A stretch of 64,000 nucleotides of DNA from Octopus vulgaris (Eukaryota): contig OX597820.1 in the NCBI GenBank assembly GCA_951406725.2, forward strand, positions 33,666,001 to 33,730,000, read 5' to 3'. The notes beneath the pieces are model-generated. The model was not told the DNA's origin and ran no database searches. It saw only the letters and a program-made list of their open reading frames with translations. This document shows, piece by piece, positions 1-64,000 of this stretch (the stretch's first letter is position 1; each line of letters begins with the position of its first letter). The position numbers and the translations under genes are program-made.

Positions 1-145
1 TCTTTCTTCCTTCTCTTATGTTTCCGACGAAGAGCTCCGCTCGAAACGTCATACCTTCCTTCTTCCATTTTCCTGAGCGCCTAATAATAATAATACTGTA
101 ATTGTTCCACGTGTTGTTGTTTTTTCTGTTTTCCCGTTTGGATTA

Positions 146-149
<4 letters not shown>
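1..149 (+). mobile_element. 3' terminal repeat (pLTR) fragment of a Penelope-like element carrying a minimal hammerhead motif, ending at (TA)n
   Basis: CCGACGA(24-30)-A-GAGC-TCC-GCTC-GAAAC-GTC, followed by about 100 nt of T-rich tail and then (TA)n at 150-195. A diverged inverted copy follows the tract. Confidence 0.65.
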
Positions 150-8668: not shown

Positions 8669-8748
<80 letters not shown>

Positions 8749-9495
8749 GGCAGGAACGATTCAACCTGATACCGGTGGAGCTGCGCAAGGTAACTCTTTC
8801 AAAGAAGATGATGTTAAAACTTAGGTAAATAAGTGATAAGACATAACAAGTCTGGGAACCTTTTGATTCAACCTCCTATATGCATTGTATATATATATAT
8901 ATATATATTTATAATAAGATTAGCTCGTATACGAGTGGGTATATATTTGTAAAAAATGAAGTTCGAAAATGCTGCTATATTAGACAAATTTTTAATTTTT
9001 ATATATACATTATTTATTTAACATGTTTCGGTTCTTGAAATGATGAACCTTATGAAAAAAAATTATATATAAAAAAAGATAGTTCATGCTATCAAATATA
9101 AAAAATTCATATATAATATACAATAGAGTCAGACATCAAAAGTTCATATATAGTGAAGTGAGTTCATGCTATATGTTTAAAGAGTATGATGTAGTAGTTC
9201 ATAGTGGTGATATGCATTCAATATAAAAAATAGTTCATAGTGGTGATATGCATTCAATATAAAAATTGATGTTCTTGAAAAAGCGAGGAATTCATTTTAG
9301 ATTTTACCTTGAGCAACTGTGATGACTTTTGGTCGGTGTCGCTAAGGACCTTTTGCGATTCGCCCTGCGGCGACTTTTGAGCTGCATTTTTATATTGAGT
9401 AAGAGATGGAAGTCTACTGGTGCTAAATCTGGTGAATAGAGCGAGTGTGGAAGCGATATCATCTTGTTTTTGGCTAATAAAGAAGTCATGTGATC

Positions 9496-9542
<47 letters not shown>

Positions 9543-9545
<3 letters not shown>

Positions 9546-9697
9546 GATCACATGACTTCTTTATTAGCCAAAAACAAGATGATATCGCTTCCACACTCGC
9601 TCTATTCACCAGATTTAGCACCAGTAGACTTCCATCTCTTACTCAATATAAAAATGCAGCTCAAAAGTCGCCGCAGGGCGAATCGCAAAAGGTCCTT
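9543..9697 (+). pseudogene. Mariner transposase fragment (mirrored at about 9345-9498 on the minus strand)
   Basis: LPHSLYSPDLAPVDFHLLLNIKMQLKSRR, matching the mariner HPPYSPDLAP motif. Confidence 0.85.
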
Positions 9698-9975
9698 AGC
9701 GACACCGACCAAAAGTCATCACAGTTGCTCAAGGTAAAATCTAAAATGAATTCCTCGCTTTTTCAAGAACATCAATTTTTATATTGAATGCATATCACCA
9801 CTATGAACTATTTTTTATATTGAATGCATATCACCACTATGAACTACTACATCATACTCTTTAAACATATAGCATGAACTCACTTCACTATATATGAACT
9901 TTTGATGTCTGACTCTATTGTATATTATATATGAATTTTTTATATTTGATAGCATGAACTATCTTTTTTATATAT

Positions 9976-10027
9976 AATTTTTTTTCATAAGGTTCATCAT
10001 TTCAAGAACCGAAACATGTTAAATAAA
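9976..10027 (+). ncRNA. Inactivated hammerhead-like motif (mirrored at about 9013-9065)
   Basis: TTCATAA-GGTTC-loop-GAACC-GAAAC-AT-GTT. The homologue at 35874-35920 has TTGATAA. Confidence 0.55.
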
Positions 10028-10123
10028 TAATGTATATATAAAAATTAAAAATTTGTCTAATATAGCAGCATTTTCGAACTTCATTTTTTACAAATATATA
10101 CCCACTCGTATACGAGCTAATCT

Positions 10124-10198
<75 letters not shown>

Positions 10199-10199
10199 A

Positions 10200-10355
10200 T
10201 ATAGGAGGTTGAATCAAAAGGTTCCCAGACTTGTTATGTCTTATCACTTATTTACCTAAGTTTTAACATCATCTTCTTTGAAAGAGTTACCTTGCGCAGC
10301 ACTACACCGGTATCAGCGTTCCTGCCACTTTTGGAATACGGCCTGGAAATTATTA
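10200..10355 (-). mobile_element. Mariner 3' end and TIR (mirrored at 8744-8880)
   Basis: FQAVFQKWQER*YRCSAAQGNSFKED matches a mariner C-terminus. It is followed by a TIR-like GGGAACCTTTTGATTCAACCTCCTA. Confidence 0.75.
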
Positions 10356-13372: not shown

Positions 13373-16300
13373 CCTCCATTTCCACCCCACTTTCCACTCT
13401 GCTACACCACTCCTACCCATACTCCGTACTACATCCTACCGCCTTATGCGTGCCACCATTCACTCCAATCTCTCCAAAATATACACCATCGACCGTCTTC
13501 TCCCTCTTGCTTTTTCCATCTTCTCCTCTCAGTCGCCCTCCCATGCCAACACCACGTTACGTTACATAATTTATTTAAATCATCTCTTTTATCAATTTCT
13601 CGCTAACACCAAACAACGTAAGCTCCACTCACTCCTCCATTCCATCACACCCGATGTCACTACCCCAACTCCCCCACTACCCCAGTTCCTCCCTGATACG
13701 CTCCCCCACCTTCACCCAAACCCCACGTCCCTCTAAATCCCCACACACATACCCCATCGCCTCCTTCCCAGCCTTCCACCAGTCCCACCACCCCTCCTAC
13801 TTCTACTCTATCCACCGCTCCTACATCTATCCCATCCACCCCTTCTCCACTTCAGTCTGTTGCTACCATTCCTCCAGATCTTCCCCTCTCTGAGGCGGAG
13901 AACTCCCTCCTTAGTAGGGGGTCTCTGCTTCATCCCCCTCACTCCATCCAGCAACGAATTTCGGACTCGTGCTGATATCCACAGCTTTGTGCGCCGTGTT
14001 AGGTTGTGTGCGCTTTCCCGCGGCACTCCACCTGCATCTAATGAGGAGGACTGCTTCACCGACCTGGGCCGCCGACCATCCCTGTGGACGCTAGCTCCTG
14101 GCCAGTTCCAAGCAGTTGATCTTTTTTCGGGCGCCTGCCAGCTCTCTGTGGACCGGTTTAACTTTTCCAGGTGGCCCCGTCATCTAAACATCTCCCCAGC
14201 CGAACTCTCGGCTCTTCCATGTCTCCGACGCCGCACTGACATCATCATAAAATCGGCCGACAAGAGTGGAGCCGTGGTGGTGTGGTGCGCAGACCTCTAC
14301 AAGGCTGAAGCTCTCCGCCAACTTCAAGACACTTCCTTCTACTGCCTTCTGCCCTCTGACTCCACGCCCAGCTACCAACAGACTGTGTCCTCCACTATCC
14401 ATGACCTCATCTCCTCCTCCCGTCTCCCCCACCACCGCCTCCAACCTCATTGTCCGCACCCGTCGCACCCCCACCATTTACTTCCTCCCCAAAATCCACA
14501 AACCTAACAACCCTAGCCGCCCCATCGTCTCCGCCTGCAACTGCCCCACTGAACTCATCTCCCGATATCTTGACCGTGTCCTTGCCCCCCTAGTGGCTTC
14601 CCTCCCGTCTCACATCCATGACACTAACCACGCGTTTCGTTTGTTCACCTCTTTCTCCTTCCCTCCTAGCCCCTCTAAATTCCTCTTCACTCTCGACATC
14701 CAGAGCCTTTACACGGCGATCCCTCACCACGTGGGGCTGCGTGCACTCCAACATTTCCTTGACCTTCGACCTAACCCCCAGTCCGACACATCCACACTCG
14801 TTCGTCTGGCTGAACGTGTCCTCTCACTCAACTGCTTCTTGTTCGCGGGTGATTTCTACCAGCAAATCTCGGGAGTGGCCATAGGAACGAGAATGGGCCC
14901 CCAACTATGCAAACCTGTTCGTTGGCTACGTTGCGGCTCAAATATTCTCAAGTTTCACTGGTCCTACTCCCGAACTATATGGCCATTATATTGACGACTG
15001 TATCAGTGCGACTTCACTCTCCTGCGAACATCTAGACTCCTTCTTCTCTTTTGTCAAATCTTTCTATCCTGCCCTCCACTTCTCCTGCACTATCTCTGAC
15101 ATCTCTGTCTCCTTTCTTGACATTTCGGTCAGCATTCATCACTCCACTCTCACCACCTCCATCCACTAGAAACACACAGACTCACACTCATACCTCAACT
15201 TCTCCTCCTCCCACCCCAAACACATCAAGCTTTCCATCCCCTACTCCCAATTCCTCCGTCTACGCAGGCTCTGTAGTGACGACCATAACTTTAAGACTCA
15301 GTCTCAACTCATGGATCGCAACTTCATCCTACGTGGATATCTCCTCACCACTATCCACACCGCCCTTGCCAGAGCACGTTCCGTGGACCGTGCATCTGCT
15401 CTCTCCCCCCGAACCCACCCCGCCATCTCTCGCCTCTCAATTTCCCCTTCACCTACCACCCCACCACCCTACCTCTCCAACATCGTACATCTTCCCTAAC
15501 CTACCCCTTCCTCCTTCAAATGAGCCCTCAACCTACGAGACCTCTTGGTCCACAGCTTCTTCCCTAACCCAACTTCTCAACCCGGTTCGTTCCTCTACTC
15601 CCGCCCACACTGCCACACTTGCCCTTACCTCTCCAACAACACCTTCCTCACCGGCACCCATCATCGACCCTATCACATCACCGAATATCATCTACTGAAT
15701 CTCCTGCTCTCTCTGCCCTTCTCTATACATCGGGCAAAAGGGACGCCACTTAGCTGACCGGTTTGCGGAACACCTCCGAGACATCCGACTCGGCAATGAC
15801 ACCCCGGTCTCGCGCCATTTCTGCTCTACCGATCACTCTTTGCAACACCTGTCCGTGTTCGGATTGTCCTTGCACAGGGCCATCCGGACTCCCGTTTGCG
15901 TCGTGAACAGGGATTAATCTTCTCTCTTCGCTCCTTTGCGTCACATGGGCTCGTCTCTCCTCTCCTCTTCATCTAACCTACTCTCCTCGCCTCTCTCCCC
16001 CTCACACCTACTTCCTCCCACCTCTCCTCTCCTCTCTTGCTCCGACTCCTACTTCTTCTCTTCACTCCTACTCTCTTTCTCTCTTCTCTTCACTCCTACC
16101 CATCTTCTCCTTCCCCTTCATTGTCACCCCTCCCTCGTAAGCCCACCCCACCCCTACAATTCCAACCCCACCTTCCCTATTCTTCCCCAATCCCTTACAC
16201 CCACTCCCACATACCTCTACCTCCAACCTCTGCCTACCCACATACCCCACCCTCAGCGTAGCCCAAGCCCCACCCTTGCTTTCCCCACTCTCGCCTACCC

Positions 16301-31816: not shown

Positions 31817-31866
31817 GACGCCTCAGATGAGCGCCCAATAAGGTTCGAAAATCGATTAAGGTTGTT
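31817..31866 (+). ncRNA. Degenerate type-I hammerhead motif (U4>A)
   Basis: gcct-CAGATGA-GCGCC..GGTTC-GAAAA-TCGA-TTA-aggt. Stem III is palindromic. Confidence 0.5.
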
Positions 31867-32189: not shown

Positions 32190-33868
32190 ATATGCACACA
32201 TATACACACACACATACATGTACGTACACACATACACACACACACATATGTATGTATATTTATCTATATACACACGCGTATACAAATACATACAAACACA
32301 CATATATACATATTTCTACGCATACACGCACTTATACTCATGCACACATCACTGCGCTCATATATACAACTCTACACACACACACATACATACGCGGATA
32401 TACAAAATGTAGTTTATATGCACCTGCGTATACATACGCGGAAAACGTATATACAAAAACACATACTCAAAAACACACTCATCAATATGTTCATATACAC
32501 ATCTCTATACGCAAATACACATACATACGCGGATTTACAAAACATAGTCTATACACATATGCACATACATACGCGGATAGATGTATTGGGTTGTCCGGAA
32601 AGTTCGTGCCGATTTATAGTAGCTTAACTTTCGACTTATTTTAGAACATGGTTGAGTCCATAAAATAGGATTTGACTACACCTCCATTTAGAGCACAGTT
32701 TAAGCTATCTTTTCGTGGAAGAAGGTTTATGTTCCTATAACCTGTGTTAATTATGTAACCCTTTAAAATGGAAGATAAGAAAGTTTATATTCGGCACTTG
32801 ATGCTTTAGGGAACCAGACAAAAATTACTGCAGCTTGGCTGGAATGTGTTACCCCACCCTCCATATTCACCAGATATTGCTCTTTCGGATTTCCACTTAT
32901 TCAGGTCTCTGCAGAATAGTCTTAATGGTAAAAATTTTAATTCCTTCGATGACGTAAAAAGATACCTTGATGAATTCTTTGCCATGAAACCACCTCAATT
33001 CTGGGAAGAGGGTATTTTCAAGTTAAAGGAAAGATGGAGATGGATTGTGCAACAAAATGGTTCATAATTGGTTGATTAAAAATGTAATGGCAAGTGTTTA
33101 TTGACCTTTTCCTTTCCTTTAAAAGTCGGCACGAACTTTCCGGACAACCCAATATATACAAACAAAAACACATACGCAAAAAAAGTACATAAACCGTAAA
33201 ACATTCAGCGCCGCAGAACTTGAATATACAAATGAGTTATATATGTATATACACAAATACACATCTACACCTGCAGACATATAAACGTATAAACATACAT
33301 ATATGTCTCCTTCCTTCATACACTCATATATGTACGTATATTCGTTTATATGTCTGCAGGTATAGACGTATTTGCCAGACAGGAGGGTGCCTCATTTGTA
33401 TATTCAAGTTTTGCGGTTTACGTATTTCTTCTTTTTTTTGCGTATGTGTTTTTATTTATATATACGTCTATATTTGTCACACAGGAGGGTGTATTTGTGT
33501 ATATACATAGATAACTCATTTTTATATTCAAGTTTTGTGGCGAAGGTGAATGTTTTACGGTTTATGCGTTTGTGTTTTTGATTTGTATATACGTCTATCA
33601 GCGTATGTGTGTGCATGTGTGTATAGACTATGTTTTGTATATCCGCGTATGTATGTGAATGTGCGTATAGAGATGTGTATATGAACATATTGATGCGAGT
33701 GTTTTAGAGTATGTGTTTTTGTGTATGTTTTCTGCGTATGTATATGCATGTGCGTATAAACTACGTTTTGTATATCCGCGTATGTATGTGTGTGTGCGTG
33801 TAGAGATATATATATGAGCGTAGTGATGCGTGCATGGGTATATATGTGTGTGTTTGCGTAGAAATATG

Positions 33869-33900
<32 letters not shown>
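32190..33900. repeat. Fold-back element: diverged inverted arms of about 500 bp built from microsatellite-like sequence
   Basis: About 32300-32583 plus 33153-33270 is the reverse complement of about 33480-33880. Confidence 0.8.
32586..33152 (+). mobile_element. Internally deleted mariner element (567 bp)
   Basis: TA|TTGGGTTGTCCGGAAAGTTCGTGCCGA...TCGGCACGAACTTTCCGGACAACCCAA|TA. MEDKKVYIRHLML is fused to LPHPPYSPDIALSDFHLFRSLQNSL. Confidence 0.95.
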
Positions 33901-33943
<43 letters not shown>

Positions 33944-34165
33944 ATATGTTTTTATATGTCTATATGGTTTTATTTAATATACATATAATCATATACTTCT
34001 CATTTATTTAGTTTTTCTTCCCTTTATCCTTCCTCTTTCTATAGGCTACCTCTGACTTTATATCCTATAACGTTGTTTTGAAACAAGGTTAATAGCGTTC
34101 AGTTAATCACTATACATATCTATCATTTTCTGTTAAAATGTCTTATTGAAGAGTTTCATTTCTTC

Positions 34166-34251
34166 ATTTCCCTGAAGAGATTACATTGTTTTACACCATT
34201 TTATTCCTTTGGAATAATACCAGTGATTTCTTCGAAACATGTGTCGGAAGT
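34166..34251 (+). ncRNA. Type-I hammerhead ribozyme motif
   Basis: ATTTCC-CTGAAGA-GA...TC-GAAAC-ATGT-GTC-GGAAGT. 6-bp stem I, GUC site, about 35 nt upstream of (TA)n. Confidence 0.8.
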
Positions 34252-34284
34252 AAAAAAATTTGAATAACACCTGCATTTAACTCC

Positions 34285-34358
<74 letters not shown>

Positions 34359-34443
34359 AAGGGTGGAAAGGAACACACGAGTTGATGTATATGAAAAAAC
34401 AAGTCAAAAATAGAAAATGCTAAGATAATTTTATAGTGAATCT

Positions 34444-34486
34444 TTCAGTACCGGTTTCGGTCATTTTGAGACCTTTTCAACTGTAA
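34444..34486 (-). ncRNA. Hammerhead motif with U3:A8 core
   Basis: TTACAG-TTGAAAA-GGTC-loop-GACC-GAAAC-CG-GTA-CTGAA. Confidence 0.7.
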
Positions 34487-35125
34487 CGATTAAATAATTA
34501 AATTTAGAAAAATTAGAAGAAAAGTTTTTTTAAATGAATATTTCTGTAGTAGTGTTCAGATATAAGTAGCATTCTGCCTTTCTCTGACTCCCTTGTTTGC
34601 ACTTGTGTGTTCGAGGTCGTTTTGAGTTCTTGGTAGGATAGGTGAAGAATAAGGAGGCTGATGTGGAGAGAGGGTGGGGAAATCTGGGAATGCCTTAATG
34701 GTCGTATTTTGAATGGTCAGTGGCTGACAGTAGTCGCAGTTCAATTCAGGAATTGTTTATGGAATTTGCGTAGGCGTTATACTGAAAGACATTAGTGACA
34801 AGGTTAAGGGGTGGAAGGTGGAGAAGTAGAAGAAGAAGAAGATGACGATGTTGATGATGATGATGAAGAAGAAGAAGAAGAAGAAGAAGAAGAAGAAGAA
34901 GAAGAAGAAGAAGATGGTGGTGATGATGGTGGTGATGATGATGACGACGATGATGATGATAATGATGATGATGAAGAAGAAGAGGAAGAAGAAGAAGAAA
35001 AAAACAGCGAAGGGAGAATATGAATGGGTGAAAGTATAGCTGTGATGGGGCTGATTAGTAATGGATTCTATGGAGTGTAATATTTGTGTGTGTATATATT
35101 TCTTTTATTCTAAAGTTGAGGTATA

Positions 35126-35500
35126 TTAATTGTTTGTCGTAGACCCGTTAAGAAGTGGCTTGTATTTTGTAATAAAGAGATTTTCTTTACTTATTCGTTG
35201 TCTCGAGGTTGTATCGTCCCTAAATTGGTAGAGGGGGAAAATCCTGAAGTTTGGTGTTTTTTTGTTGGCGCAAGTATCTATGTGTTGGCTAAAAGCTATT
35301 TTTCTGTTTTGGAGAATTTTTATCTGGGATCTGTGCAGGGCCATTCGTTTACGCAAACCATTTTTTGTTTGGCCTATGTACTGCTCTTGACACCCGGAGC
35401 AGGTTAGTGAGTATATTAGGTTCTCCGAAGCACATGTGAAGTTGCTTTTCACTGTAAACCGTTGTGCCTGTTTGAAGGAGAACTCTGATCCCTCAATTAG
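35126..35500 (-). pseudogene. PLE GIY-YIG endonuclease domain (open frame, 5' truncated)
   Basis: FTCASENLIYSLTCSGCQEQYIGQTKNGLRKRMALHRSQI...RISKENLFITKYKPLLN. Confidence 0.9.
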
Positions 35501-35617
35501 ATATCTAATTGAGGGATCAGAGAAAGGCAGAATGCTACTTATATCTGAACACTACTACAGAAATATTCATTTAAAAAAACTTTTCTTCTAATTTTTCTAA
35601 ATTTAATTATTTAATCG

Positions 35618-35660
35618 TTACAGTTGAAAAGGTCTCAAAATGACCGAAACCGGTACTGAA
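35618..35660 (+). ncRNA. Hammerhead motif with U3:A8 core (inverted pLTR copy)
   Basis: Same sequence as 34444-34486 on the opposite strand. Confidence 0.7.
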
Positions 35661-35707
35661 AGATTCACTATAAAATTATCTTAGCATTTTCTATTTTTGA
35701 CTTGTTT

Positions 35708-35773
<66 letters not shown>

Positions 35774-35776
<3 letters not shown>

Positions 35777-36616
35777 ATTAGCTCGTATACGAGTGGGTAT
35801 ATATTTGTAAAAAATGAAGTTTGAAAATGCTGCTATATTAGACAAACTTTAATTTTTATATATACATTATTTATTTAACATGTTTCGGTTCTTGAAATGA
35901 CGAACCTTATCAAAAGAAAATTATATATAAAAAAGATAGTTCATGCTATCAAATATAAAAAAATTCATATATAATATTCAATAGAATCAGACATAAAAAA
36001 ATCATATATAGTAAAGCGAGTCCATGCTATATGTTTAAAGAGTATGATGTAGTAGTTCATAGTGGTGATATGCATTCAATATAAAAAATTCATGTTCTTG
36101 AAAAAGCGAGGAAATAATTTTAGATTTTACCTTGTGTTCCAATGGGAGCAACTGTAATGACTTTTGGTTGGCGCCTGTTCGTATAGTTTTGGTGAATCTT
36201 GTGAATTGTTTGGGTTTTATATCAGTTCAGCTTAGCTGTCTCACTTGCATTTTTCACTGACGTCATATAGTTCCCAACCAATCAAAACTCAGTCTCAACG
36301 AATATATCTTGTTAGGAAACCAACCAAGCAGAACGACAGTTTGGCCACGGGAGAAATATGTCATCCTTGTTTTTGACGGATTGGAATTTGATCTGATCCA
36401 TGACTGTAGCCTGTTAGGTGGCTAGTCAAGCGGAACGAGACGTCATCAATGTTTTGACTGATCATCTCGTTAGGTGGCTAGTCCAGCAGAACGGGACGTC
36501 ATCAATGTTTTGACCAGTCATCCCGTTTGGTGGCTAGTCTAGCAGAACGAGACGTCATCAATGTTTTGACCAATCAGAATCGGGTCTGACCTATAGCTGT
36601 ATTAGATCTGACCCAT

Positions 36617-36620
<4 letters not shown>
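35774..36620 (-). mobile_element. Non-coding HHR-bearing element between two (TA)n tracts (pLTR-like)
   Basis: HHR TTGATAA-GGTTC..GAACC-GAAAC-AT-GTT at 35874-35920. 35774-36175 is homologous to 8913-9340. About 55-bp tandem repeats at 36410-36580. Confidence 0.65.
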
Positions 36621-36683
<63 letters not shown>

Positions 36684-36699
36684 GATAAATGTATATATA

Positions 36700-37568
36700 C
36701 AGGGTTCAGTGAATAAACTGTCGTCTAAATTACGCAAGAATGAAAGTAACACTGACATCTCATTTTGAAAGATACATTTACCAAAATTACATAAATATAT
36801 CTTGAAATTCTAAAGGGTAAATTAATTCAATAAAATCGCCGTTAGCTTCGACCACGGCATCCCGACAACTTCGGAATCCCTTGCAACTCCTGCGGACGGT
36901 TTCCTTGTTTAAGTTGGTGAATGCTGCCATAATCCTTGCCTTCAGTTCATTTTTGGTGTTACAATGAGTTTTGCTGGTCTCTCGCTCAACTTCGCTCCGC
37001 ACATAATAATCAAGGGGGATGCAGCCTGGAGAGTTAGATGGCCAGATGTTAGGGGTAGTGTGGTCACAGAAATTGTCTGACAGCCATGATTGGGTGCTCC
37101 TGTTTGTGTGGCATAGTGCAGAGGCCTGTTGCCAGACACAGGGTTTTCTAGCCGCCACCCTCCAGACCCAAGGTAGCAGTACCTCCTCCAGGGCACTTGA
37201 TGTAGTCCTTCGTGTTGAGTCTGAGGCTGTGTGGTAAGATGAATGGAGGCATAACACGCCATCACTAGTGATCACGCGAAACACCATGATGTTGACTCGA
37301 TGTTTGATTTTTATCACTTTCGGTACATGTCCTCAGACTGCACTGTCCTCAGACACTGAAATGTTTGTATTCGAGCTTCTAGTACGAATGCCAAGCAGTA
37401 CAGCGTATAGCTTCCAAACATCTGGCAGAATGAATTGCGTCATGGTGCTGTTTTTCTCACAGACGGTGCCCAATTGACCCTACTATACTGTGTGGTCGAC
37501 AAAATCAAAAACAATGCGCATGCACGAAAGTAAAAGTGAGATGATGATAATTTACCCATCACACCCTG
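36700..37568 (-). mobile_element. Internally deleted Tc1/mariner-superfamily transposon (maT/DD37D-like)
   Basis: TA|CAGGGT...ACCCTG|TA. MVFRVITSDG, VWQQASALCH, WPSNSPGCIPLDYYVRSEVE, AVVEANGDFIE. Confidence 0.88.
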
Positions 37569-38438: not shown

Positions 38439-38932
38439 ATATATAGATTTTCAACAGAGAGGATATTCTATTATAATTTTTAGCAAATATTTCGTCGGAG
38501 ATAGAGAATGAAAAAATTCCATGCTACTACTATTGTAGCAGGTTAAACTTAGAGAAAAGCAACTACAATTTTGGTAGAAGTGGTCAATACAGAGTGGCAG
38601 AAGTGGTCCACAGTGGGTGTCATGGTAATTTAGCTACAATTTTTATCTATCCCCTTATCATCATCAAAAGACCTAATTCAGTTAGTGAACTGCATATATT
38701 AAGAATTAAAACCACTTGGAGTTGACAGCTAAGTTCTAGCAGCTGGTCACAAATTCAATAATTGTTAGATATTCTCTCAAACCTTAATTCACTGTGACAA
38801 TATAATTCCCTTGACACATAAAGAAATAAATCTCAGAAGTCATTTGGATAGTGGTAAATGCCCAGAAAAAGAGGTTGGGTAGAGGTGACATAAACTTTTT
38901 TATTACTATCAGTCTCCAATAGAAAACATAGG

Positions 38933-39628
38933 ACGCTACAATGAGATGTAGATGGGCATTAAAGGTACAGAGGGAAAAGATATTATATTTTGTATAATAA
39001 ATGTTAATTTTTTTAAATTTAAAAAGGGATATGAGAACCGGGTAAAGTAAAAAGAATATATAGACCAATTTAAGCACAAAAAAATGGAGATTACTTTTAT
39101 ATAAAATATAAGCTTCATAATACTTCATCTTAGCAGGACTTTCAGGTGGTTATGATACTTACATTCAGAATTTTTCTGGGAAAGGGATATACATTTCCTA
39201 TTGATTGAAAACAGGGGTCCAAAAGCAGAAATATAAGATACATGGTTCTCTAACAGATGAACTTATTTAAAATTATATTATACATATATTTTTAAACAAG
39301 CTTATCTGTTATGAACCATTTATCTTATTTTTCTGCTTTTGGACCCCTGTTTTCAATCAATAGAAAATGTATATCCCTTTCCCAGAAAAATTCTGAATGT
39401 AAGTATCATAACCACCTGAAAGTCCTGCTAAGATGAAGTATTATGAAGCTTATATTTTATATAAAAGTAATCTCCATTTTTTTGTGCTTAAATTGGTCTA
39501 TATATTCTTTTTACTTTACCCAGTTCTCATATCCCTTTTTAAATTTAAAGAATTTAACATTTATTATACAAAATATAATATCTTTTCCCTCTGTACCTTT
39601 AATGCCCATCTACATCTCATTGTAGCGT
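38933..39628. repeat. About 700-bp fold-back palindrome
   Basis: Near-identical ORF text on opposite strands (MKYYEAYILYKSNLHFF...). Centre at about 39280. Confidence 0.93.
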
Positions 39629-39784
39629 TCTGAATGTAAGTTGAGTTCATTGTTTGAATAATTGTATCATAACCACCTGAAAGAGCAATTTTTTACAATT
39701 ATGAAAAGTCGTAAAAGATGTAATGATATAAGGAGATATAACAGCATAAAAATATGGCATACACATATATATACAAAGAAAACA

Positions 39785-41682: not shown

Positions 41683-41770
41683 GACAGGCTTCTTTCAGTT
41701 TCCGTCTACCAAATCCACCGGAACCATGTGGTTGGTAAGCGAGCTACTTACCACACAGCCACTCCAGTTC
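40535..41770 (-). mobile_element. SINE family B split by a solo-LTR insertion
   Basis: 3' half at 40535-40710, 5' half at 41680-41770. Confidence 0.8.
40714..41618. mobile_element. Solo LTR (905 bp), Gypsy-like
   Basis: TGTTACG...CGTATCA termini with a 4-bp TSD ATAT. It interrupts a SINE. Confidence 0.75.
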
Positions 41771-42123: not shown

Positions 42124-42202
42124 AGCTCTGATGAGACTTATATAAGTAGATATGCATTGTATAAAGCAAATAAGATATATAAGTCGTAACAAATTGTTGG
42201 CT
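42124..42202 (+). ncRNA. Type-I hammerhead motif with one core mutation (GAAAC>GTAAC)
   Basis: AGCT-CTGATGA-GACTTATATA...TATATAAGTC-GTAAC-AAATT-GTT-GGCT. Perfect 10-bp stem II. Confidence 0.7.
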
Positions 42203-46693: not shown

Positions 46694-47873
46694 CGAGGGG
46701 TGTCTGAAAAGTCTTGAGCCTCAAAAAAACAAAACATAGTACAAGACTTCTGATGACTGAACACTAAGAAACTTCCTACAGTGTCTATGACGTCATTGTC
46801 AGTGGCAAAATGGCAACCAGCCAGGCCTTTTTTCAATTTGGGGAATAGATGAAAGTCAGAGGGGACTAAGTCTGGCGAATAAGGGAGATGGGGAACAAGT
46901 TCGTCTCCACAATCACGAATTATTGAGGTGTGGGCTGGAGCATTGTCGTGATGAAAAAGGACTCCTCTGGTGAGCATTCCTGGCCTTTTTTCTTTGATTG
47001 CTTCCTGGAGGCATTACAGTACCTGAGAATAATACAGCCCTGTCACAGTGTGACCCTTTCCAAGGTAATCGATCAGCAAGACACCTTCAGAATCCAAAAA
47101 AAACTGACGCCATGACCTTGCCAGCTGAAGGAATGACCTGGCCTTCAGGAGAAGATGATGTGCTTCCATTGCTTTGATTGTTCTTTGGTTTCAGGCTGGT
47201 AGTGATGAACCCAACTTTCGTCCATAGTAATAAAACGAACAAGAAAATTCTCTTCATCGGCTTCAAACAGTTCCAGATTGCTCGTGGACAAAGTGCACCT
47301 AGTGCGTTTCTGTTCAGGAGTCAAAACCCGAGGAACCCACCTTGCAGAAACCTTTGAGAACCCATGTTCTTTTGTCCCAATGTTGTCTGCTCTTTCATTT
47401 GAGATGCCCAGTCTCTCAGCTATCTGGCGACATGATATTCGACGATCTTGCGTTATCATACCAAGAGCAAGGTCAATGTTGTCCTCGGTGGTTGCAGTTG
47501 GAGGCCTCCCTGGTCTGGGATCATCTTCCACACTCTTCCTGCCACGCTGGAATTCATTTACCCAGCGTTTGAATGTTGCATATGAAGGAGCATTTTCTGT
47601 TAAGGTTCTCACCATATCTTCATGGATTTCTGAAGGAGTCATGCCTTTCAAATGAAGGTACTTCATTACAACACGATACTCAGTTTTCCCCATTTTCCTT
47701 GTAACCTCGACACTTGTTTATTCAAAAATCTGTAACAAAAAAAAATTAAAATATCAGAATCATAAAAATGAGCAAGAATACTCCGATAAGACTGTACTTA
47801 CCAGAAAACATTGTTTCAGCTACCTAGCAGCCCCGTTTCTATGTTAGGCTCAAAACTTTTCATACACCCCTCG
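46694..47873 (-). mobile_element. Mariner transposon with both TIRs
   Basis: TA|CGAGGGGTGTCTGAAAAGTCTTGAGCCT...AGGCTCAAAACTTTTCATACACCCCTCG|TA. Confidence 0.95.
46760..47693 (-). pseudogene. Mariner DD34D transposase, frameshifted with the C-terminus deleted
   Basis: SARWVPRVLT, ITMDESWVHHY, FHHDNAPAH, PHLPYSPDLVPSDFHLFPKLK. Confidence 0.93.
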
Positions 47874-63013: not shown

Positions 63014-64000
63014 TTATTGCAAAGCTTCATGATAAACAACATTTTTGGTCTTCCCATTCGGGGTCAGTACAAACAGCTTATTTCCATTTCTAACCCTTGA
63101 ACAACCAGCATAGAGCTGGCCGTGAGAAAAGCAGAGTTCTATCAGATGAAGCCCTGTTACTGTTAATGATTGTCCTTGGGACTTATTGACTGACATTGCA
63201 TAGCCCACTCTCACTGGAAACTGAAGTCTTTTGAGCTCAAAACGAAGATCTGGAGAAATTAAGGGGATTCTTGGAATTAAATCTCTTTCCTCTTTTCTTA
63301 GACCAGTAAGGATCTCTACTTCCAAGAGATGACGAAGCATCTTCTTGACAATTAACCTTGTTCTGTTACAAAACTTTGGAGAATCCAGATTTCTTAATGA
63401 CATAACTGGTACATTTTCTTTTAGTTCCAGGTTGTGTGATGGCATTCCAGTAGGATTCAATGAGTTCAGGAACTCTGTTGATAATTCACTGCGTGCTCTT
63501 GTTCAGCCACAGTGTCAATGAAAATGTACTTCATGCTTTCTTTTGGAATTTCTTGGAGAGGTTTCCAGTTGATGCTATCCACAGTTTTATTCTTCATAGC
63601 TAATATGGCCGAATCCAAAAAATGATGTTTAATGTTTGGATAAACATGGTTAATCAAGTCTTGTCTACTTGAGATTGAAACTTGAGATTTGGGAGTGAAA
63701 TATCTCCATTTTGGTCCATCTTGATGGTTCCATTGCCAAGTTGCAACAACAAAGCAGCAAATCTTCATGTTTCAAGGTTACCCGTGATTCTAGCTTTCAT
63801 GTTTGTTTTCAGGCTGAGTGTTTGAACATTCTCCAGATGTAAGAATTATTCAGGCAAGCATTGGTTTCATCAACTGGAGTTCCTCTTGCAAAGACTTGTA
63901 ATGTTTGTCTAAGATCACCAGAGAATAGCATAGTGATACCTCCCATGATTTGTGAATTTTGTCTAATATCTTGGAGTATTTTGTCCAGAGTCTCAAATGC
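63014..64000 (-). pseudogene. Helitron RepHel PIF1-type helicase C-terminal part, decayed; runs off the window edge
   Basis: GGITMLFSGDLRQTL, SAILAMKNKTVDSIN, GMPSHNLELKENVPVMSLRNL, RLQFPVRVGYAMSVNKSQGQSL, FSHGQLYAGCSRV, TKNVVYHEAL. Confidence 0.93.

What the first reader, a model, noticed from the sequence alone, without database searches (positions are those of the whole stretch)
34166..35920. Convergent hammerhead pairs facing each other across single (TA)n tracts
Seen: 34166(+)/34444(-) flank (TA)n at 34288-34354. 35618(+)/35874(-) flank (TA)n at 35712-35773. The same geometry occurs at 1-335, at 31817/32040 (short TA remnant) and loosely at 42124/42770. Except at 1-335 the partners are different families. 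Inference: (TA)n is self-complementary, so an endonuclease can prime reverse transcription on either strand and one tract collects tail-to-tail insertions. The tracts act as landing pads and may be regenerated or extended by insertion.
Basis: partly seen in the sequence, partly recalled or inferred. Interest (0 to 1): 0.75.

Follow-up and report, generated by a model that had tools for sequence, protein, structure and literature searches.

The report
Penelope transposons stacked in TA repeats
The facing ribozyme pairs are real but ordinary: three Penelope-type jumping elements sit stacked in TA repeats, the two inner ribozymes are the two ends of one element, and facing pairs likely arise whenever such insertions pile into the same repeat.

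Summary
The pairing is misread. The 34446(-) and 35621(+) motifs are the two 100%-identical inverted arms of one Neptune-type Penelope-like insertion (B, 34355-35711, GIY-YIG end inside). B likely split a tract already flanked by elements A and C. Such two-armed insertions with a 36-nt tail on one arm are described (Craig 2021). Each insertion points a ribozyme end outward at TA, so stacked insertions face each other without special targeting. In 119 random 10-kb loci, hammerheads have TA downstream in 68/104 and upstream in 47/104 (background 16%), and 1/815 tracts is tail-to-tail (1.3 expected by independence). Beside young insertions, 17/170 tracts face another family: twice the genome rate (P=0.003), but not significantly above other tracts in the same loci (Fisher P=0.09). 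Priming on both strands is supported within one event: 18 of 20 two-armed B copies pair one tailed and one tail-less arm. Tract regeneration is unproven. The scan found TA-targeted Penelope hammerheads and two-sided insertion before, on other DNA of this genome.

The parts
33869..33941 (.). Short (TA)n plus (TG)n run at the head of element A; likely the left edge of the original microsatellite
   Evidence: homology of A copies starts at 33943
33943..34287 (+). Element A: one-armed, truncated hammerhead-bearing end, about 345 nt, the most diverged of the three
   Evidence: 2447 first-look candidates, best relatives 93-95% identical; extent from BLAST on fetched loci
34166..34251 (+). Type I hammerhead of A (C3-G8 core, long helix II, palindromic helix III)
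34288..34354 (.). (TA)n tract between A and the tailed arm of B
34355..34391 (-). 36-nt 'tail' of B, present on this arm only; bounded by short AT-like motifs of the element
34355..35711 (-). Element B: two-armed, 5'-truncated Neptune-type Penelope-like insertion
   Evidence: inverted repeat 34385-34587 / 35517-35719, 203 nt, 100%; full-length relative L031; relatives 99% identical
34446..34483 (-). Hammerhead of B, tailed arm (U3-A8 core variant)
35126..35500 (-). C-terminal GIY-YIG endonuclease part of the B ORF
   Evidence: PF01541 E=5.6e-05, 23.8 bits, above the 22.6 cut-off
35486..35523 (.). Head-to-head junction of the B arms: 19-nt fold-back hairpin, then a short microhomology into the second arm
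   Evidence: sequence; other copies continue the ORF at 35503 (loose ends)
35621..35658 (+). Hammerhead of B, tail-less inverted arm, identical to 34446-34483
35712..35774 (.). (TA)n tract between the tail-less arm of B and element C
35775..36619 (-). Element C: one-armed, about 845 nt, tailed end at the TA, no ORF of 120 aa or more
   Evidence: relatives 97-99% identical; many copies share the same extent; ORF list
35877..35913 (-). Hammerhead core of C (U3-A8 variant, weak helix I)
36620..36681 (.). (TA)n tract at the head of C; likely the right edge of the original microsatellite

Best explanation
Three hammerhead-bearing elements of different families lie stacked between TA tracts, the middle one is a single two-armed Penelope-like insertion with a ribozyme end facing outward on each side, and the facing pairs are likely a by-product of successive insertions into pieces of one (TA)n tract. 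Shown: the anatomy, the GIY-YIG/RT identity of B, TA adjacency of young ends, the one-tailed/one-tail-less rule, and pair counts near the independence expectation. Inferred: the endonuclease nicks the self-complementary (TA)n on both strands; each 3' end primes reverse transcription at one of two start sites 36 nt apart downstream of the hammerhead; the two cDNAs grow inward and are joined head to head by fold-back and microhomology, which splits the tract in two. When only one strand is extended, a one-armed copy results (A, C, most B). Inferred order from divergence: A, then C facing it, then B between them.
For: Arms 203 nt, 100% complementary. GIY-YIG inside. Full-length L031 has tandem plus inverted pLTRs, RT (PF00078 E=3e-08) and the CX4CxxC linker. 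A TA tract lies within 250 nt downstream of the index hammerhead in 131 of 141 young copies of five families (B 26/26, C 29/29, A 20/28, D 28/29, X 28/29). There are 303 exact tail-less B/TA junctions in the genome, control 0. Two-armed B copies: 18 of 20 tailed/tail-less, 1 cut by the locus end (tailed in L035), 1 tail-less on both arms, 0 tailed on both. The tail-less arm is the longer one in L012, L033 and L046, so it is not a mere fold-back copy of the tailed arm. Random tracts: tail-tail 1 of 815, 1.3 expected. All 17 facing partners beside young insertions belong to another family. In vitro a Poseidon PLE cuts and extends both strands and starts RT at two sites that bound the tail (PMC11167929).
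Against: Facing ends beside young tails are about twice the genome rate (17 of 170 v 7.8 expected, P=0.003), while head-side tracts show no excess (2 of 58 v 2.4); a weak tail-to-tail preference is not excluded. The random sample holds only 3 doubly flanked tracts, so it has little power against a two- to three-fold effect. The hammerhead library is incomplete (unscored family ends are visible across tracts in L200, L241, L255). No empty allele was seen, and the order of events rests on divergence alone. Families X (0 of 29) and C (2 of 29) are rarely two-armed within 1.5 kb, so two-armed insertion is not general.
Confidence: 0.8

Rival explanations
1. Tract-level landing pad: a tract next to an existing Penelope end is a preferred target, and the newcomer is preferentially set tail-to-tail.
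For: 17 of 170 far sides are facing ends v 7.8 expected from length-matched random tracts (P=0.003); head-side tracts 2 of 58. Three facing pairs in 36 window tracts.
Against: Other tracts in the same 3-kb loci are also enriched (44 of 706 sides, 12.7 expected for the 170); Fisher P=0.09, and P=0.29 for all adjacent tracts (19 of 228). Non-self hammerheads are 2.6-fold denser across these loci (0.237 v 0.092 per kb). Tail-head pairs occur (6 of 170, 4.2 expected). Random tracts show no excess.
Confidence: 0.12
2. Insertion lengthens or regenerates the tract (target duplication or repeat addition by the telomerase-like RT), so targets renew themselves. This can hold together with the best explanation.
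For: TA runs at tail-less B ends have median 39 nt (n=48), longer than the 22 expected from splitting tracts chosen in proportion to length (KS P=6e-05), and are compatible with no shortening at all (P=0.08).
Against: The same data fit a simple preference for tracts over about 20 nt (expected median 35, P=0.28). An apparent 25-nt mode (9 of 21) did not replicate in the unselected set (4 of 47, P=0.36). Another abundant repeat end supplies TA independently (77 of 140 copies next to TA).
Confidence: 0.25
3. The convergent arrangement is functional or selected (for example paired ribozymes releasing or bounding a transcript across the tract).
For: None from these calls beyond the geometry.
Against: The ribozymes lie on opposite strands, so no single RNA holds both. 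Partners are unrelated families in 17 of 17 cases. Many partners are decayed. The frequency is near chance.
Confidence: 0.03

Closest known systems
EN+ Penelope-like elements, Neptune/Nematis type (Craig et al. 2021, PMC8557442; passages seen)
   Same: RT with C-terminal GIY-YIG, CX2-5CxxC linker, pLTR partial tandem, inverted 5'-truncated copy framing the unit, 30-40-bp tail at one end, hammerhead in the pLTR; linker hypothesised there to drive microsatellite bias in Neptune; (TA)n targets reported for Naiad and Hydra.
   Different: The passages seen do not count facing ends across shared tracts or state the strict tailed/tail-less pairing of arms. Clade placement by tree was not done here.
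PAc Poseidon element of Anolis in vitro (Frangieh et al. 2024, PMC11167929; parts 1-2 of 4 read)
   Same: Both DNA strands cut and extended, AT-rich cleavage, two internal RT start sites that bound the tail, predicted dimer; hammerhead cleavage not needed for insertion.
   Different: Different clade without the linker Zn finger. There the RNA start site is not homologous to the cut DNA, whereas both B ends (and both C ends) stop at short AT-like motifs of the element, which could pair with the TA target (inferred).
Minimal type I hammerheads of metazoan PLEs (Cervera and De la Pena 2014, PMC4209133; parts 1-2 of 4 read)
   Same: Short helix I, palindromic helix III, U3-A8 covariation, extra nucleotide at helix II, many dispersed single copies; dual motifs 100-700 bp apart on opposite strands already noted in Schistosoma.
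   Different: That text does not give the direction of the opposite-strand pairs or link them to (TA)n.
Animal non-LTR retrozymes (Li, Clavereau and Pollet 2026, 10.64898/2026.07.22.740005; part 1 of 5 read)
   Same: Hammerhead-bearing non-coding PLE derivatives; element C may be one.
   Different: Defined by tandem units each with a hammerhead; B is a fragment of a coding PLE, and A and C carry one hammerhead each here.

Membership tests
EN+ Penelope-like element (B) | RT with C-terminal GIY-YIG endonuclease | tested here: met
   P0001 from L031: RVT_1 E=3.3e-08, GIY-YIG E=0.0047 (below cut-off, frame breaks near the end); window piece GIY-YIG E=5.6e-05, above cut-off. The L031 ORF is in two frames.
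EN+ Penelope-like element (B) | pLTR partial tandem with inverted 5'-truncated copy | tested here: met
   L031 map; window arms; 15 of 50 B loci two-armed within 1.5 kb
EN+ Penelope-like element (B) | 30-40-bp tail at one end | tested here: met
   36-nt offset between the two end types; 18 of 20 two-armed copies tailed/tail-less
EN+ Penelope-like element (B) | Hammerhead inside the pLTR | tested here: met
Neptune clade | CX2-5CxxC linker before GIY-YIG and CCHH within the endonuclease | tested here: met
   CX4CxxC and CxxC...H...H read in P0001 and the window ORF; motif definition from PMC8557442
Neptune clade | RT phylogeny placing it in Neptune rather than Nematis or Hydra | not tested
   No named reference PLE proteins were fetched; no PDB match
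Minimal type I PLE hammerhead | Core boxes, 3-8 pair, G10.1-C11.1, palindromic helix III | tested here: met
   A C3-G8; B and C U3-A8; all with palindromic helix III
Minimal type I PLE hammerhead | Self-cleavage | not testable with these tools
   Needs in vitro assay; monomer folds are weak
EN+ Penelope-like element (A, C) | Linked RT/GIY-YIG ORF | not tested
   No long copies were sought; assignment rests on hammerhead type, TA-anchored ends, two end types (C) and two-armed copies (A 5 of 28, C 2 of 29)
Non-LTR retrozyme | Tandem non-coding units, each with a hammerhead | tested here: not met
   At this locus B carries a GIY-YIG ORF piece and A and C have one hammerhead each; other copies of A and C were not examined for tandems

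The most novel reading that the evidence does not exclude
Penelope ends and their TA tracts form self-renewing landing pads: a dimeric RT-endonuclease cuts (TA)n on both strands, always loads one start site on each strand, leaves two tracts no shorter than the one it used, and thereby draws further families tail-first into the same spot about twice as often as chance.
Probability: 0.15. Interest if true: 0.55.

Novelty: new member of a known kind. Interest (0 to 1): 0.27.

Why it matters
The finding itself is a stack of known-type elements. Its value is as a clean genomic record of Penelope integration, whose steps after priming are unresolved: one tailed and one tail-less arm per two-armed insertion matches the two RT start sites and two-strand cleavage seen in vitro, and family B is young (99% identity, 303 exact tail-less junctions) with a near-intact full-length copy, so it could be assayed on (TA)n targets. 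If tract renewal were real it would link Penelope activity to the very high TA content of this genome.

Tried and rejected
Rfam scan: no hammerhead among the 150 of 205 matches shown, only miRNA models on simple repeats. Monomer folding: not significant. A 25-nt mode of TA at tail-less B ends looked strong in the BLAST-ranked set (9 of 21, P=3e-06) and failed in the pattern-selected set (4 of 47, P=0.36): rejected. Empty-site test: Logan contigs of four runs were laid on 33400-37000; no piece spans a TA tract and none of the 15 joints shown (77 more not shown) skips B; uninformative. Earlier versions of the pair count had faults and were replaced: mis-projected hits displaced family A, and a false seed inside element C inflated the 'other tract' control; final numbers are, except the TA-adjacency of index copies and the window tract list. 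One search timed out after its first map. (CA/TG)n control: 23 downstream, 17 upstream of 104, background 10.5%, no orientation bias. Considered and rejected: 9020(-)/9984(+) as a two-armed C insertion; both arms are tailed and the symmetry extends past the TA tracts. Literature searches found no paper that counts facing Penelope ends across (TA)n; the library lacks most subscription papers, Arkhipova 2006 was not seen, and no supplements were read. Forty further B loci could not be fetched, so partner counts rest on 165 conditioned loci.

Full report
Setting. The window is G000:C7:33666001-33730000 of a 2.8-Gb assembly in 227 contigs. It is rich in microsatellites and animal-type repeats.

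Observation. The four motifs and two tracts are present. A (34166-34251, +) has a C3-G8 core. The motifs at 34446-34483(-), 35621-35658(+) and 35877-35913(-) have the U3-A8 variant described for PLE hammerheads (PMC4209133, part 1). All have a short palindromic helix III. The scan found 28 hits at score 15 or more in 120 random 10-kb loci, against 0 in shuffled and 0 in reversed DNA. Rfam and monomer folding add no support.

34385-34587 and 35517-35719 are a 203-nt, 100% inverted repeat. Between them lies the end of a GIY-YIG ORF on the minus strand. So the right member of the first pair and the left member of the second are the two arms of one insertion, B (34355-35711). A full-length relative (L031) shows tailed pLTR, ORF, internal pLTR, partial tandem and an inverted tail-less arm. 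Its protein has RT, a CX4CxxC linker and GIY-YIG, the Neptune/Nematis layout of PMC8557442 (passages). That paper's Fig. 2 legend already describes the inverted truncated copy and a 30-40-bp tail at one end. BLAST against fetched loci delimits A (33943-34287) and C (35775-36619) as one-armed elements, each with TA or TA/TG at its head. The block therefore reads TA-A>-TA-<B..B>-TA-<C-TA. Nearest relatives are 93-95% identical for A, 97-99% for C and 99% for B, which suggests that B came last and split an A/C tract (inference).

How insertions are built. Young ends abut TA: 131 of 141 index copies of five families have a tract within 250 nt downstream of the hammerhead, and 303 exact tail-less B/TA junctions exist genome-wide with 0 for the control. 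B ends are of two kinds, 36 nt apart. Among 20 two-armed copies, 18 pair a tailed with a tail-less arm, one is cut by the locus end (tailed in L035), one is tail-less on both arms and none is tailed on both (8 of the 20 were selected for having one tail-less end). Either arm can be the longer. One-armed B copies are mostly tail-less. The arms meet head to head, in the window through a 19-nt hairpin and a microhomology. This fits, by inference, priming from both strands at two RT start sites in one event. PMC11167929 (parts 1-2) shows two-strand cleavage and extension and two start sites bounding the tail in vitro. Two-armed copies within 1.5 kb are common in B (15 of 50) and D (13 of 29), rarer in A (5 of 28) and C (2 of 29), and absent in X (0 of 29).

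I drew 120 random 10-kb stretches from 14 contigs, within length ranges known at that point, so not uniformly over the genome. One overlapping locus (L170) was dropped. A seed-and-BLAST library found 110 hammerhead copies in them (a reversed-sequence control of the previous library version gave 0). Of 104 copies away from locus ends, 68 have (TA)5 or more within 250 nt downstream, 47 upstream and 38 both, against a background of 15.8% per side; the orientation bias has P=0.001. Many copies have TA on both sides because short one-armed insertions sit inside a split tract. Of 815 tracts at least 330 nt from locus ends, 1 is tail-tail, 2 tail-head and 0 head-head; independence predicts 1.3, 1.5 and 0.4. 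A process that splits tracts at random gives exactly the square of the end frequency (my derivation). Extrapolated, the genome would hold about 3,000 or more facing pairs.

Conditioned test. I used 165 loci centred on young copies (B 50, C 29, A 28, D 29, X 29). Window-overlapping and duplicate loci were dropped, and L321-L340 were not included. At tracts on an index tail, the far side is a facing end in 17 of 170 and a head in 6. Length-matched random tracts predict 7.8 (P=0.003) and 4.2. At the index's other end it is 2 of 58 (2.4 expected). Other tracts in the same loci show 44 of 706 sides, predicting 12.7; Fisher P=0.09, or 0.29 for all adjacent tracts. Non-self hammerheads are 0.237 per kb in these loci against 0.092 at random. 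Changing the distance to 150 nt or the merge rule to 60 nt gives the same picture (P=0.07 and 0.20). So Penelope ends cluster regionally, and a tract-level effect, if any, is under two-fold. All 17 partners are other families, as expected with dozens of families. The window itself has 17 copies in 64 kb, a Penelope-rich region. The library misses some families, so absolute rates are lower bounds.

Regeneration of tracts. TA runs at tail-less B ends (median 39 nt, n=48) are longer than simple splitting of length-weighted tracts predicts, but fit either a preference for tracts over about 20 nt or no shortening. A 25-nt mode did not replicate. No empty allele could be read from contigs. The point stays open.

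Verdict. Real feature, known kind of element, geometry mostly a by-product of nesting. Searches found no published count of facing ends; opposite-strand hammerhead pairs 100-700 bp apart were noted in 2014. PMC9977147 (passages) had nothing on this geometry for PLEs; PMC4486113 was seen only in a listing. Interest 0.27.

Noticed in passing
window 8744-10331: An inverted duplication of about 800 nt per arm centred on (TA)23 at 9498-9543. It includes a tailed family C end, a TA tract and flanking DNA in each arm. A fold-back rearrangement at the TA hairpin, or an assembly artefact.
   Followed up: partly
window 13737-15698 (+): Decayed ORF pieces of another Penelope-like RT (motifs resembling those of P0001; RVT_1 E=0.016).
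   Followed up: partly
window 35775-36619 and L173-L200: Family C copies often share one 850-900-nt extent between TA tracts, have no long ORF and contain 36- and 56-bp internal tandems: a candidate non-autonomous Penelope passenger.
   Followed up: partly
window 15-149; L261-L290: Family X is very young (99-100% identical copies), has a C at core position 4 instead of U, and was never two-armed in 29 loci. A C4 core also occurs in other families.
   Followed up: partly
window 41683-41760; random loci L051-L169: The end of a very abundant repeat (140 copies in 1.19 Mb; SINE-like by recall, not tested) lies next to (TA)n in 77 of 140 cases and heads a B insertion in L005. It may be a source of the TA targets.
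   Followed up: partly
window 34355-34391 and 35775-35810; L176, L179: In both B and C the two end types stop at short AT-like motifs inside the element, 36 nt apart in B, which could anneal to the TA target.
   Followed up: partly
random loci L051-L169: Dozens of unrelated hammerhead families; 110 copies in 1.19 Mb, which extrapolates to over 200,000 in the genome. L159 holds a family in tandem at about 485-nt spacing.
   Followed up: partly
window 38930-39631: Inverted repeat of 319 nt, 98% complementary, 64 nt apart, with no hammerhead detected.
   Followed up: no
window 32582-33151, 36700-37370, 47145-47717: Remnants that look like Tc1/mariner transposases (ORF translations; family name recalled, not scanned).
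   Followed up: no
window 63014-63502 (-): ORF piece that looks like a PIF1/Helitron helicase end (name recalled, not scanned).
   Followed up: no
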